This document shows, piece after piece, positions 24,477 to 41,306 of a DNA stretch of 64,000 bases (its first letter is position 1; each line of letters begins with the position of its first letter). Both the position numbers and the translations under genes were made by a program. The notes beneath the pieces were generated by a model. The model did not search any database, was not told the DNA's origin, and saw only the letters and a program-made list of their open reading frames with translations. This stretch comes from Escherichia coli (GTDB lineage: Bacteria > Pseudomonadota > Gammaproteobacteria > Enterobacterales > Enterobacteriaceae), in NCBI RefSeq assembly GCF_045037415.1, contig NZ_CP173438.1; one strand, given 5' to 3'.

Positions 24477-24518
24477 ATAACATGTAGTTAAAACCTCTTC
24501 AAATTTGCGGTGCAAATT

Positions 24519-24595
<77 letters not shown>

Positions 24596-24663
24596 GTAGA
24601 GGTTTTACTGCTCATTTTCATCAGACAATCTGTGTGAGCACTTCAAAGTACGCTTCTTTAAGG

Positions 24664-26205
<1,542 letters not shown>

Positions 26206-26336
26206 AAAAGTTTGATGCTCGTGAATTAAACTTCGTAATGAATTACGTGTTCACTCAGAGACTTGAGTATTCATTTTTCGTCTTGCGACGTCAAGAATCC
26301 GTATCTTCGAGTGCCCACACAGATTGTCTGATAAAT

Positions 26337-26349
26337 TGTTAAAGAGCAG
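26337..26349 (-). promoter_or_regulatory. rrn leader boxA antitermination element
   Basis: Minus strand reads TGCTCTTTAACAA, the conserved rrn boxA. Confidence 0.6.
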
Positions 26350-26388
26350 TTGCGACGCGGCTTTCAGCTCACTGTCGCGAGGTGGCGT

Positions 26389-26416
26389 ATATTACGCTTT
26401 CCTCTTTCAGAGTCAA
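26389..26416 (-). promoter_or_regulatory. rrn P2 promoter (-35 TTGACT, 16-bp spacer, -10 TAATAT)
   Basis: Minus strand TTGACTCTGAAAGAGGAAAGCGTAATAT read directly; position consistent with rrn P2. Confidence 0.6.
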
Positions 26417-26498
26417 CCCTGAATTTCAGGATTTTTCTCTTCAACCGAACCGGCTGTTTGTGTGAAGTGATTCACATCCGCCGTGTCGATGGAGGCGC

Positions 26499-26550
26499 AT
26501 TATAGGGAGTCGTCTCAGGAAGACAAGCGGAAAAATGCATTTTTATTTCA
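26499..26550 (-). promoter_or_regulatory. rrn P1 promoter (-35 TTGTCT, -10 TATAAT) with A/T-rich UP element
   Basis: Minus strand ...AAAAATGCATTTTTCCGCTTGTCTTCCTGAGACGACTCCCTATAATGCGCC; matches the rrn P1 core ACTCCCTATAATGCGCC. Confidence 0.65.
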
Positions 26551-26569: not shown

Positions 26570-27142
26570 TTACGCCGGTTTTTGCTGCTTTTTTATCGCT
26601 TGCGGCAGGTCTGCCAGGCTATTTAACACCCAATCCGCCGCGTTTTCTGCTTCAGGCGTAATAGGTTTACCCGTACGCACCAGCACTTTTGTTCCCACGC
26701 TCGCCGCAGCCGCTGCCTGCATATCTTCTAATTTATCGCCCACCATATAAGAAGCGGCCATATCAATATGCAAATAATCGCGTGCTGACAAAAACATCCC
26801 CGGATGTGGTTTGCGGCAGTCGCAGACCTGGCGAAACTCTTCAACACTACCCTGCGGATGATGCGGGCAATAATAGATACCATCCAGATCGACATCGCGG
26901 TCCGCCAGCGACCAGTCCATCCACTCGGTCAGCGTTTCAAACTGTGCTTCAGTAAATTTACCGCGAGCAATGCCAGACTGGTTGGTTACTACCACCAGCG
27001 CAAAGCCCATTTTTTTTAGCTCGCGCATGGCGTCAATAACACCGTCGATAAATTCAAAGTTGTCGATCTCATGGACATAACCGTGATCGACATTAATGGT
27101 GCCATCACGGTCAAGAAAAATTGCGGGTACGCTCTTCGCCAC
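26570..27142 (-). CDS. gmhB: D-glycero-D-manno-heptose 1,7-bisphosphate phosphatase
   Basis: 190 aa; HAD-like DxDGT motif (FLDRDGTIN); immediately upstream of rrn P1. Confidence 0.9.
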
Positions 27143-27231
27143 CTTTTATAGCTCCTTAATAAGGCATGTGACGCTAGTATCGCATGTTTCGACCTGCAAG
27201 AAAGTGCTCTTCGCATAAACCTGATTGATTT

Positions 27232-27255
27232 AGACGTCTGGATGCCTTAACATCC
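27232..27255 (+). promoter_or_regulatory. Putative MetJ operator (tandem met boxes) upstream of metN
   Basis: Perfect AGACGTCT box at 27232-27239 followed by degenerate 8-bp repeats (GGATGCCT, TAACATCC). Confidence 0.4.
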
Positions 27256-27329
27256 ATTTCATTGACGGCGTTGCCCGTTCCAGGCATTCGAAATGCCACG
27301 ACTAACTTAATGACGATAATAAATAATCA

Positions 27330-28361
27330 ATGATAAAACTTTCGAATATCACCAAAGTGTTCCACCAGGGCACCCGCACCATCCAGGCGTTGAACAACGT
27401 CAGCCTGCATGTGCCAGCTGGACAAATTTATGGCGTTATCGGTGCCTCAGGCGCGGGTAAGAGTACGCTTATACGTTGTGTAAACCTGCTGGAGCGCCCA
27501 ACCGAGGGTAGCGTGCTGGTCGATGGCCAGGAACTGACCACGCTGTCAGAATCCGAGTTGACCAAAGCTCGTCGCCAGATTGGTATGATTTTCCAGCATT
27601 TTAACCTGCTCTCTTCGCGTACTGTTTTTGGCAACGTGGCTCTGCCGCTGGAGCTGGACAACACACCGAAAGACGAGATCAAACGTCGCGTGACGGAATT
27701 GCTGTCATTGGTTGGTCTTGGCGATAAGCATGATAGCTACCCGTCGAATCTTTCCGGTGGGCAGAAACAACGTGTGGCGATTGCCCGTGCATTAGCCAGC
27801 AATCCCAAAGTATTGCTGTGTGATGAAGCCACCAGCGCGCTGGACCCGGCAACGACACGTTCTATTCTCGAACTGCTGAAAGACATCAACCGCCGTCTGG
27901 GTTTGACGATTCTGTTGATCACTCACGAAATGGACGTTGTGAAGCGCATTTGTGATTGCGTGGCGGTCATCAGCAATGGCGAACTGATCGAGCAGGACAC
28001 GGTAAGTGAAGTGTTCTCGCATCCGAAAACGCCGCTGGCGCAGAAGTTTATTCAGTCGACCCTGCATCTGGATATCCCGGAAGATTACCAGGAACGTCTG
28101 CAAGCGGAGCCATTTACTGACTGCGTGCCGATGCTGCGTCTGGAGTTTACCGGTCAATCGGTCGATGCCCCACTGCTTTCTGAAACCGCGCGTCGTTTCA
28201 ACGTCAACAACAACATTATTAGCGCGCAGATGGATTACGCCGGTGGCGTTAAGTTCGGCATTATGCTGACTGAAATGCACGGCACACAACAAGATACGCA
28301 AGCCGCCATTGCCTGGCTGCAGGAACACCATGTAAAAGTAGAGGTACTGGGTTATGTCTGA
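27330..28361 (+). CDS. metN: D-methionine ABC transporter ATP-binding protein
   Basis: 343 aa; Walker [13 protein letters not shown] signature LSGGQKQR, C-terminal NIL domain. Confidence 0.92.
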
Positions 28362-29007
28362 GCCGATGATGTGGCTGCTGGTTCGTGGCGTATGGGAAAC
28401 GCTGGCAATGACCTTCGTATCCGGTTTTTTTGGCTTTGTGATTGGTCTGCCGGTTGGCGTTCTGCTTTATGTCACGCGTCCGGGGCAAATTATTGCTAAC
28501 GCGAAGTTGTATCGTACCATTTCTGCGATTGTGAACATTTTCCGTTCCATCCCGTTCATTATCTTGCTGGTATGGATGATTCCGTTTACCCGCGTTATTG
28601 TCGGTACATCGATTGGATTGCAGGCAGCGATTGTTCCGTTAACCGTTGGTGCAGCACCGTTTATTGCCCGTATGGTCGAGAACGCTCTTCTGGAGATCCC
28701 AACCGGGTTAATTGAAGCCTCCCGCGCAATGGGTGCCACGCCAATGCAGATCGTCCGTAAAGTGCTGTTACCGGAAGCGTTGCCGGGTCTGGTGAATGCG
28801 GCAACTATTACCCTGATTACCCTGGTCGGTTATTCCGCGATGGGTGGTGCAGTCGGTGCCGGTGGTTTAGGTCAGATTGGCTATCAGTATGGCTACATCG
28901 GCTACAACGCGACGGTGATGAATACGGTACTGGTATTGCTGGTCATTCTGGTTTATTTAATTCAGTTCGCAGGCGACCGCATCGTCCGGGCTGTCACTCG
29001 CAAGTAA
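28354..29007 (+). CDS. metI: D-methionine ABC transporter permease
   Basis: 217-aa polytopic membrane protein overlapping the metN stop by 8 nt. Confidence 0.92.
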
Positions 29008-29046: not shown

Positions 29047-29862
29047 ATGGCGTTCAAATTCAAAACCTTTGCGGCAGTGGGAGCCCTGATTGGATCACTG
29101 GCACTGGTAGGCTGCGGTCAGGATGAAAAAGATCCAAACCACATTAAAGTCGGCGTGATTGTTGGTGCCGAACAGCAGGTTGCAGAAGTCGCGCAGAAAG
29201 TTGCGAAAGACAAATATGGCCTGGACGTTGAGCTGGTAACCTTCAACGACTATGTTCTGCCAAACGAAGCATTGAGCAAAGGCGATATCGACGCCAACGC
29301 CTTCCAGCATAAACCGTACCTTGATCAGCAACTGAAAGATCGTGGCTACAAACTGGTCGCAGTAGGCAACACATTTGTTTATCCGATTGCTGGTTACTCC
29401 AAGAAAATCAAATCACTGGATGAACTGCAGGATGGTTCGCAGGTTGCCGTGCCAAACGACCCAACTAACCTTGGTCGTTCACTGCTGCTGCTGCAAAAAG
29501 TGGGCTTGATCAAACTGAAAGATGGCGTTGGCCTGCTGCCGACCGTTCTTGATGTTGTTGAGAACCCAAAAAATCTGAAAATTGTTGAACTGGAAGCACC
29601 GCAGCTGCCGCGCTCTCTGGACGACGCGCAAATCGCTCTGGCAGTTATCAATACCACCTATGCCAGCCAGATTGGCCTGACTCCAGCGAAAGACGGTATC
29701 TTTGTCGAAGATAAAGAGTCCCCGTACGTAAACCTGATCGTAACGCGTGAAGACAACAAAGACGCCGAAAACGTGAAGAAATTCGTTCAGGCTTATCAGT
29801 CTGACGAAGTTTACGAAGCAGCAAACAAAGTGTTTAACGGCGGCGCTGTTAAAGGCTGGTAA
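29047..29862 (+). CDS. metQ: D-methionine ABC transporter substrate-binding lipoprotein
   Basis: 271 aa with lipobox (LALVGC) and NlpA-family binding-protein sequence. Confidence 0.92.
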   Translation: MAFKFKTFAAVGALIGSLALVGCGQDEKDPNHIKVGVIVGAEQQVAEVAQKVAKDKYGLDVELVTFNDYVLPNEALSKGDIDANAFQHKPYLDQQLKDRGYKLVAVGNTFVYPIAGYSKKIKSLDELQDGSQVAVPNDPTNLGRSLLLLQKVGLIKLKDGVGLLPTVLDVVENPKNLKIVELEAPQLPRSLDDAQIALAVINTTYASQIGLTPAKDGIFVEDKESPYVNLIVTREDNKDAENVKKFVQAYQSDEVYEAANKVFNGGAVKGW

Positions 29863-40346: not shown

Positions 40347-41306
40347 TTACGCGTAGCCGTAGCTCATCAGGCGCTGATAACGACGATTTTTTAAATCTTC
40401 AGTGCTTAACACGTCGAGATCGGCCAGATCCGCCAGCAGCTGCGCTTTCAGAGACGCCGCCATCGCTTCCGGGTTACGGTGAGCACCGCCCAGCGGTTCC
40501 GGGATGATGGAGTCGATCAGTTTCAGCTCTTTCAGACGCGGAGCGATGATACCCATCGCTTCAGCCGCCAGCGGCGCTTTGTCAGCGCTCTTCCACAGAA
40601 TGGACGCACAACCTTCCGGCGAGATAACGGAATAGGTGCTGTATTGCAGCATATTCACTTTATCGCCCACGCCAATCGCCAGCGCACCACCAGAACCACC
40701 TTCACCGATAACCGTACAAACTACCGGTACGCCGAGGCGAGACATTTCACGCAGGTTGCGTGCAATGGCTTCCGACTGACCACGTTCTTCTGCGCCCACG
40801 CCCGGATATGCCCCCGGGGTGTCGATAAAGGTGATGATAGGCATCTTAAAACGTTCAGCCATTTGCATCAGACGCAGTGCTTTGCGGTAACCTTCTGGCG
40901 CTGGCATACCAAAGTTACGGCGAATTTTTTCTTTGGTTTCACGACCTTTTTGATGACCAATGATCATCACCGGACGACCATCGAGACGGGCGATACCACC
41001 GACGATAGCTTTATCGTCTGCATACGCGCGGTCGCCAGCCAGTTCGTCAAATTCATCAAATGCCAGGCGAACGTAATCCAGGGTATAAGGACGCTGTGGA
41101 TGGCGTGCCAGTTGCGCAATCTGCCATGCACCGAGATCGGCGAAGATTTTACGCGTCAGTTCTACGCTTTTTTCACGCAGACGATGCACTTCTTCATCGA
41201 TGTTAATATCCAGTTTCTCATCCTGACGGCTAACCGCAGTCAGAGAATCGATTTTCGCTTCCAGCTCTGCAATCGGCTGTTCAAAATCAAGGAAATTCAG
41301 ACTCAT
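40347..41306 (-). CDS. accA: Acetyl-CoA carboxylase carboxyltransferase alpha subunit
   Basis: 319 aa from [22 protein letters not shown]. Confidence 0.95.

What the first reader, a model, noticed from the sequence alone, without database searches (positions are those of the whole stretch)
27224..27260. Met-box operator upstream of metNIQ
A perfect AGACGTCT octamer at 27232-27239 followed by two degenerate 8-bp repeats sits about 90 bp upstream of metN, consistent with tandem MetJ boxes that control methionine import. The sequence supports retention of methionine-responsive control of this transporter in this strain.
Basis: partly seen in the sequence, partly recalled or inferred. Interest (0 to 1): 0.15.

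Follow-up and report, generated by a model that had tools for sequence, protein, structure and literature searches.

The report
Known MetJ operator at metNIQ promoter
This is the already published binding site for the methionine repressor MetJ, lying on top of the promoter of the E. coli methionine importer genes metNIQ; it is unchanged from the laboratory strain K-12 and is ordinary.

Summary
AGACGTCT lies at 27232-27239, followed in phase by GGATGCCT and TAACATCC, and ends 74 bp before the metN ATG (27330). The window is E. coli gmhB<->metNIQ. The 24-bp site is identical to K-12 and is the exact site listed for b0199/metN by Augustus & Spicer 2011 (3 boxes, 20.45 bits). With their matrix I get 20.43 bits. 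This is the best three-box score in the 64 kb (next 11.74), and 0 of 500 dinucleotide shuffles reach it. In 115 Enterobacterales genomes chosen without reference to the operator, columns 27224-27256 are about 95-98% conserved against about 52-61% in the flanks. The published TSS (NC_000913.3 222714, reverse) maps to window 27261. The boxes therefore span -29 to -6, covering the spacer and the -10 (TAACAT) of a TTGATT-17-TAACAT promoter, so MetJ-SAM should block RNA polymerase. Published data for the same sequence show about 20-fold MetJ-dependent repression. Two corrections apply: the true site is 27232-27255, and the octamers either side of it are not boxes. Box 3 coincides with the -10 and is sub-threshold in 35 of 115 species, so it may be conserved mainly as promoter. 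Verdict: already known, low interest.

The parts
27225..27230 (+). -35 hexamer TTGATT of the metNIQ promoter (-36..-31)
   Evidence: It lies 17 bp upstream of TAACAT. TTGATT or TTGACT is present in 111 of 115 Enterobacterales, and column identity is 0.965. The position is consistent with the mapped TSS. The pair matches only 8 of 12 consensus positions, below the promoter scanner's threshold.
27232..27239 (.). Met box 1, AGACGTCT, perfect consensus (-29..-22)
   Evidence: 12.58 bits, which is the matrix maximum. Column identity is 0.978 across 115 species. It is part of the published K-12 site.
27240..27247 (.). Met box 2, GGATGCCT (-21..-14)
   Evidence: 4.22 bits against a cut-off of 3.145. 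Column identity is 0.949 although it sits in the promoter spacer. It is part of the published K-12 site.
27248..27255 (.). Met box 3, TAACATCC (-13..-6); its first six bases are the -10 hexamer
   Evidence: 3.63 bits, just above the cut-off. It falls below the cut-off in 35 of 115 species (TACCATCC, TAGCATCC), which still keep the TAnnnT pattern. It is part of the published K-12 site.
27248..27253 (+). -10 hexamer TAACAT of the metNIQ promoter (-13..-8)
   Evidence: Seven bases separate it from the mapped TSS at 27261. It is conserved.
27261..27261 (+). Transcription start site of metNIQ (A)
   Evidence: Yan et al. 2018, SMRT-Cappable-seq Supplementary Data 2: operon b0199|b0198|b0197, TSS 222714 reverse, on NC_000913.3. 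I mapped it base for base through locus L124. The TSS was measured in K-12, not in this strain.
27261..27329 (+). 69-nt metN leader (5' UTR)
   Evidence: It runs from the TSS to the ATG. It has no Rfam match at E<=1, and its folding energy is ordinary, with z = 0.30. The window's two differences from K-12 (27280 C for T, 27292 A for G) lie here.
27330..28361 (+). metN, ATPase of the methionine ABC importer
   Evidence: TIGR02314 equivalog, 701.8 bits, cut-off 499.7. RefSeq annotation in E. coli.
28354..29007 (+). metI, permease
   Evidence: NF008049, 452.5 bits.
29047..29862 (+). metQ, substrate-binding lipoprotein
   Evidence: NF008285, 569.7 bits.

Best explanation
Window 27232-27255 is the MetJ operator of the E. 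coli metNIQ (metD) operon. It consists of three contiguous 8-bp met boxes: one perfect and two degenerate. The boxes lie at -29 to -6 relative to the metNIQ start site and cover the spacer and the -10 hexamer of a sigma-70 promoter, TTGATT-17-TAACAT. When methionine is plentiful, S-adenosylmethionine accumulates. MetJ dimers loaded with it bind cooperatively, one dimer per box, and keep RNA polymerase off the promoter, which shuts down synthesis of the high-affinity methionine importer. When methionine is scarce the repressor leaves and the operon is transcribed with a 69-nt leader.

Shown here: the sequence, its score, its identity to K-12, its conservation, and its position relative to the published TSS. 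Taken from papers: MetJ-dependent repression in vivo. Inferred from established knowledge of MetJ: one dimer per box, SAM as corepressor, and promoter occlusion as the mechanism.
For: The site is identical to K-12. It is exactly the site listed for b0199 metN in Augustus & Spicer 2011 Table S1 (agacgtctggatgccttaacatcc, 3 boxes, 20.45 bits, gap 74).

Recomputed with their Table 3 matrix, it scores 20.43 bits and ranks first in 64 kb, with the next at 11.74. None of 500 shuffles reaches it.

The loci for the footprint were picked by a MetN N-terminus pattern, not by the operator. All 115 orthologous loci have a homologous site 72-85 bp from the ATG. Columns 27224-27256 are 0.95-0.98 identical against 0.52-0.61 in the flanks. 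Boxes 1 and 2 fill the promoter spacer, which a promoter alone would not constrain.

The TSS at 222714(-) maps to window 27261.

A lacZ fusion to the 400 bp upstream of K-12 metN gave wild-type/delta-metJ expression of 0.05. metNQI are up-regulated in delta-metJ E. coli by RNA-seq. metNIQ belongs to the core MetJ regulon in an independent comparative study.
Against: Boxes 2 and 3 are weak, at 4.22 and 3.63 bits against a cut-off of 3.145. Box 3 is below the cut-off in 35 of 115 species and coincides with the -10, so its conservation may owe more to the promoter than to MetJ.

Direct MetJ binding to this fragment was not tested here. I could not confirm from the held text that metN was in the published gel shift, and the primary metD papers and Marincs 2006 are not held.

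The TSS and the reporter data come from K-12, not this strain. The metJ gene is outside the window.
Confidence: 0.95

Rival explanations
1. The block is conserved only because it is the metNIQ promoter (-35, spacer, -10), and its resemblance to met boxes is incidental.
For: The conserved block begins exactly at the -35 hexamer and ends just after the -10. Box 3 varies only at the least important -10 position and then loses its met-box score.
Against: Promoter spacers are not normally constrained in sequence, yet boxes 1 and 2 fill the spacer and are 0.95-0.98 conserved, with a perfect or near-perfect consensus box 1 in all 115 species. The array score is not reached in 500 shuffles. The same 400-bp region confers 20-fold MetJ-dependent repression.
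Confidence: 0.03
2. It is a chance match: an 8-mer palindrome with weak neighbours that means nothing.
For: One AGACGTCT per 64 kb is unremarkable: 41 of 100 shuffles have at least one.
Against: The three-box score is first in the window by 8.7 bits, and 0 of 500 shuffles reach it. It is conserved at a fixed distance from metN across Enterobacterales. It is a published site.
Confidence: 0.01
3. The inverted repeat TGGATGCCTTAACATCCA followed by TTTCATT (27239-27256) acts as an RNA hairpin, either a terminator or an attenuator, or methionine is sensed by a leader RNA as in the S-box systems of Firmicutes.
For: The terminator scanner flags it, with 6 pairs and a 6-nt loop.
Against: It lies upstream of the mapped TSS at 27261, so it is not in the metNIQ transcript. 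The only upstream gene, gmhB, is divergent. The symmetry is what two adjacent palindromic met boxes produce. There is no Rfam match in 27100-27450 at E<=1, and the leader folds no better than shuffles, with z = 0.30.
Confidence: 0.01
4. The same boxes also regulate the divergent gmhB gene. This would be in addition to, not instead of, control of metNIQ.
For: The two genes share a 187-bp intergenic region. The gmhB TSS maps to window 27170 on the - strand, 62-85 bp from the boxes.
Against: The boxes lie upstream of the gmhB -35 region, so they would not occlude that promoter. gmhB (b0200) is not among the K-12 entries of Table S1. The same paper reports that exbB, which shares an intergenic region with metC, binds MetJ but is not regulated in vivo. 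gmhB is not named among the genes up-regulated in delta-metJ.
Confidence: 0.04

Closest known systems
MetJ operator of E. coli K-12 metNIQ (metD; b0199-b0197), as listed by Augustus & Spicer 2011 (BMC Genomics 12:558, Table S1)
   Same: The 24-bp sequence, the number of boxes, the score and the 74-bp gap to the ATG are all identical. The flanking -35, -10 and TSS base are also identical.
   Different: Nothing differs in the operator or the promoter. The window differs from K-12 at two leader positions, 27280 (C for T) and 27292 (A for G).
Other E. coli MetJ operators (metA, metBL/metJ, metC, metE/metR, metF, metK, mmuP, ybdH/mtnE)
   Same: All are tandem in-phase 8-bp repeats of the AGACGTCT type lying within about 150 bp of a methionine-regulon gene, and all are repressed by MetJ.
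   Different: The metN site is mid-strength: 20.45 bits in 3 boxes, compared with 14.97 for metK and 31.2 for metB/metJ. Almost all of its score comes from one perfect box, and neither box junction has the CT|AG step of the idealised repeat.
Orthologous metN operators in Serratia, Hafnia and Rahnella
   Same: Same position (72-83 bp from the ATG) and the same box 1.
   Different: Box 2 there is AGACGCCT (7.84 bits), and in some Serratia and Hafnia relatives box 3 is TAACATCT (5.86 bits), giving up to 26.28 bits. The E. coli version is a weaker variant.

Membership tests
MetJ operator (met-box array) | Two or more contiguous, in-phase 8-bp repeats resembling AGACGTCT | tested here: met
   Three in-phase boxes score 12.58, 4.22 and 3.63 bits. 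All are at or above the published per-box cut-off of 3.145, and the total of 20.43 is at or above the site cut-off of 12.58.
MetJ operator (met-box array) | Score clearly above sequence background | tested here: met
   It ranks first of about 64,000 positions, with the next at 11.74. None of 500 dinucleotide shuffles reaches it. A Gumbel extrapolation gives P of about 0.007 per 64 kb.
MetJ operator (met-box array) | Lies in the promoter of a methionine-regulon gene, positioned to interfere with RNA polymerase | tested here: met
   The boxes span -29 to -6 relative to the published metNIQ TSS and overlap the spacer and the -10. The TSS was measured in K-12, whose sequence is identical from -36 to +19.
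MetJ operator (met-box array) | Conserved at the orthologous position in related genomes | tested here: met
   115 of 115 orthologous Enterobacterales loci carry a homologous site. Block identity is 0.95-0.98 against 0.52-0.61 in the flanks. An exact 32-mer is found in 5352 of 5426 E. coli genomes.
MetJ operator (met-box array) | Direct, SAM-stimulated binding of MetJ to this DNA | not testable with these tools
   This needs a gel shift, a footprint or ChIP. Augustus & Spicer report gel shifts (their Figure S1), but the figure is not held as text, so I could not confirm that metN was included.
MetJ operator (met-box array) | MetJ-dependent repression of the downstream gene in vivo | not testable with these tools
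   Published for the identical K-12 sequence: lacZ fusion wild-type/delta-metJ = 0.05, and metNQI up in delta-metJ RNA-seq. It was not measured in this strain.
MetJ operator (met-box array) | A metJ gene in the same genome | not testable with these tools
   In K-12, metJ lies far from this locus, by my own knowledge, and is not in the 64-kb window.
SAM (S-box) riboswitch control of metNIQ | Match to a SAM riboswitch covariance model in the leader | tested here: not met
   No Rfam match at E<=1 in 27100-27450 on either strand. The leader's folding z-score is 0.30.
Intrinsic terminator | A transcribed GC-rich hairpin plus a U-run at the end of a co-oriented gene | tested here: not met
   The hairpin-like repeat at 27239-27256 lies upstream of the TSS at 27261 and has no co-oriented gene upstream.

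The most novel reading that the evidence does not exclude
The third 'box' (TAACATCC) may be conserved mainly as the -10 hexamer and not as a MetJ contact. In that case the E. coli metN operator would work as one perfect box plus one weak box, with a third dimer held only by protein-protein cooperativity. Across Enterobacterales the operator would alternate between two-box and three-box forms without losing control. Box 3 falls below threshold in 35 of 115 species while keeping TAnnnT, which fits this reading.
Probability: 0.3. Interest if true: 0.12.

Novelty: already known. Interest (0 to 1): 0.05.

Why it matters
It matters little beyond correct annotation. It confirms that this strain keeps the standard cis-element for methionine-responsive repression of its high-affinity methionine importer, unchanged from K-12. 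The small addition is that combining the published site with a published single-molecule TSS places the boxes at -29 to -6. That makes promoter occlusion the obvious mechanism, and it shows box 3 doubling as the -10.

Tried and rejected
I tried to read the primary papers, and none is held: Merlin 2002 (PMC135343), Gal 2002 (PMC135292) and Marincs 2006 (PMC1462706).

I searched the Cappable-seq 2016 supplements for a metN TSS and found nothing in the stored text. The SMRT-Cappable-seq supplement had it.

The consensus promoter scanner did not report TTGATT-17-TAACAT, because it matches 8 of 12 positions and the threshold is 9. It reported ATGCCA-16-GATAAT at 27293-27320 instead. No TSS was found there: a search for positions beginning 22264 or 22265 found nothing. 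I therefore treat that hit as part of the conserved translation-initiation region and not as the main promoter.

I rejected the terminator-like hairpin at 27239-27256 (upstream of the TSS), the riboswitch idea and a structured leader.

I rejected the only other site passing the published rule, 40849-40864 at 12.89 bits, as chance. It barely passes and lies inside a 319-aa ORF.

I did not use the large protein searches or structure tools, because the question did not need them.

Full report
**What is in the sequence.** The + strand reads ...CCTGATTGATTT AGACGTCT GGATGCCT TAACATCC ATTTCATTGACGG.... The next two in-phase octamers are GGATGCCT (27240-27247) and TAACATCC (27248-27255). The ATG at 27330 opens a 343-aa ORF that is metN (TIGR02314 equivalog, 701.8 bits). 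It is followed by metI (28354-29007) and metQ (29047-29862). The divergent upstream gene at 26570-27142 on the - strand is gmhB. The 301 bp around the site occur in 5424 of 5426 complete E. coli genomes at 95% identity or more, annotated gmhB | metN. The window is therefore an E. coli chromosome.

**Is it more than chance?** The octamer alone is not: 0.49 are expected per 64 kb, and 41 of 100 shuffles contain one. The array is. I used the MetJ information matrix published by Augustus & Spicer 2011 (their Table 3). The three boxes score 12.58, 4.22 and 3.63 bits, 20.43 in total. This is the highest three-box sum in the window, and the runner-up scores 11.74. None of 500 dinucleotide-preserving shuffles of the whole window reaches 20.43 (mean maximum 10.43, highest 19.71). 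Three adjacent above-threshold boxes occur 0.054 times per shuffle. The octamers on either side score -9.93 (27224-27231) and -19.42 (27256-27263).

**Comparison with K-12.** The 187-bp intergenic region differs from K-12 at two positions only, 27280 and 27292, both downstream of the operator (reference sequence). The 24-mer is exactly the entry for K-12 b0199 metN in Table S1 of Augustus & Spicer: agacgtctggatgccttaacatcc, 3 boxes, 20.45 bits, gap 74. The gap in the window is also 74 (27256-27329). An exact 32-mer spanning the operator is found in 5352 of 5426 E. coli genomes. In two divergent strains I aligned, all changes fall outside the operator.

**Phylogenetic footprint.**
- To avoid selecting on the operator, I scanned the species-representative genome collection with a degenerate pattern for the MetN N-terminus, MIKLxNITKVF.
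- Of 120 hits, 115 are MetN orthologues with at least 200 bp of upstream DNA. They come from Citrobacter, Salmonella, Klebsiella, Enterobacter, Serratia, Pantoea, Erwinia, Rahnella, Hafnia and others.
- All 115 carry a homologous 24-bp site of 14.2-26.3 bits, 72-85 bp from the ATG.
- In an alignment of the 115 distinct sequences, identity to the window is 0.978 for box 1, 0.949 for box 2, 0.953 for box 3 and 0.965 for TTGATT just upstream. The flanking segments are 0.52-0.61.

**Position relative to the promoter.**
- Yan et al. 2018 (SMRT-Cappable-seq, Supplementary Data 2; reads mapped to NC_000913.3) list the operon b0199|b0198|b0197 with a TSS at 222714 on the reverse strand.
- I fetched NC_000913.3 222600-222900 and mapped this base for base to the A at window 27261.
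- TAACAT (27248-27253) is then at -13 to -8, TTGATT (27225-27230) is at -36 to -31, and the spacer is 17 bp.
- The three boxes span -29 to -6, covering the whole spacer and the -10.
- The consensus scanner missed this promoter because it matches only 8 of 12 positions. A weak core promoter is not surprising for a repressible transporter operon.

**How it most likely works.** Established knowledge of MetJ says the following, by my own knowledge and as summarised. MetJ is a ribbon-helix-helix dimer. One dimer binds per 8-bp box, neighbouring dimers bind cooperatively, S-adenosylmethionine is the corepressor, and at least two adjacent boxes are needed. Placed at -29 to -6, the bound array would exclude RNA polymerase. 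This step is inferred from the geometry. The in vivo outcome is published for the identical sequence. The 400 bp upstream of K-12 metN, driving lacZ, gave a wild-type/delta-metJ expression ratio of 0.05. metNQI are among the genes up-regulated in delta-metJ E. coli by RNA-seq. An independent comparative study places metNIQ in the core MetJ regulon.

**A caveat on box 3.** Box 3 coincides with the -10. Across species it varies only at its third base (TAACAT, TACCAT, TAGCAT). That keeps the T1, A2 and T6 bases a -10 element needs, but drops the met-box score below the cut-off in 35 of 115 species. Box 2 is sub-threshold in only 4. Part of box 3's conservation is therefore probably due to the promoter, and how much it contributes to MetJ binding in E. 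coli is open. Boxes 1 and 2 lie in the spacer, where a promoter alone imposes no sequence constraint, so their conservation is best explained by the repressor.

**Rivals.**
- Chance is excluded.
- The 'promoter only' reading fails on the spacer conservation and the MetJ-dependent reporter result.
- The terminator-like palindrome flagged at 27239-27256 is the symmetry expected from two adjacent palindromic boxes. It lies upstream of the TSS and has no co-oriented gene before it.
- An RNA sensor is unsupported. There is no Rfam match at E<=1, and the leader's folding energy is ordinary, z = 0.30.
- Co-regulation of gmhB is not excluded but is unlikely. Its TSS maps to 27170 on the - strand, which puts the boxes 62-85 bp upstream of it. 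gmhB is not listed as a target. The metC/exbB precedent shows that a shared intergenic site need not regulate both genes.

**Verdict.** Interest is low.

Noticed in passing
window 27170-27184 (- strand): The gmhB promoter can be placed. The published TSS 222805 (forward in K-12) maps to window 27170 on the - strand. Five bases upstream is GATACT (reverse complement of 27176-27181), preceded by TGC, which makes an extended -10 of the form TGnGATACT. The block 27176-27191 is almost invariant across 115 Enterobacterales.
   Followed up: partly
window 27293-27325: Two conserved blocks lie in the metN leader just before the ATG: ATGCCACGAC (27293-27302) and GACGATAATAAATAA (27311-27325). There is no obvious Shine-Dalgarno sequence. 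The promoter scanner reads ATGCCA-16-GATAAT here, but no TSS was found at the matching K-12 positions. The blocks may be an A/U-rich translation-initiation region.
   Followed up: partly
window 27280 and 27292: The window's only two differences from K-12 in the 187-bp intergenic region are C for T at 27280 and A for G at 27292. Both are in the 5' UTR, and the second is in the loop of a small predicted hairpin, GGCAUUCGAAAUGCC. The A at 27292 is shared with other E. coli strains (SX48, N96).
   Followed up: partly
window 40849-40864: This is the only other site in the window that passes the published met-box rule (AAACGTTC AGCCATTT, 12.89 bits, barely above the 12.58 cut-off). It lies inside a 319-aa ORF on the - strand (40347-41306), so it is most likely a chance match.
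   Followed up: partly
K-12 NC_000913.3 221008 and 221367 (reverse); about window 28967 and 28608 by the same mapping: The SMRT-Cappable-seq table also lists two internal start sites giving metQ-only (b0197) transcripts from within metI, and a metNIQ transcript that reads on into b0196 (rcsF). These suggest MetJ-independent expression of metQ.
   Followed up: no
window about 24500-26500: The ORF list left of gmhB shows only short, odd ORFs. K-12 has the 16S rRNA gene of rrnH next to gmhB, so this part of the window is probably a ribosomal RNA operon on the - strand.
   Followed up: no
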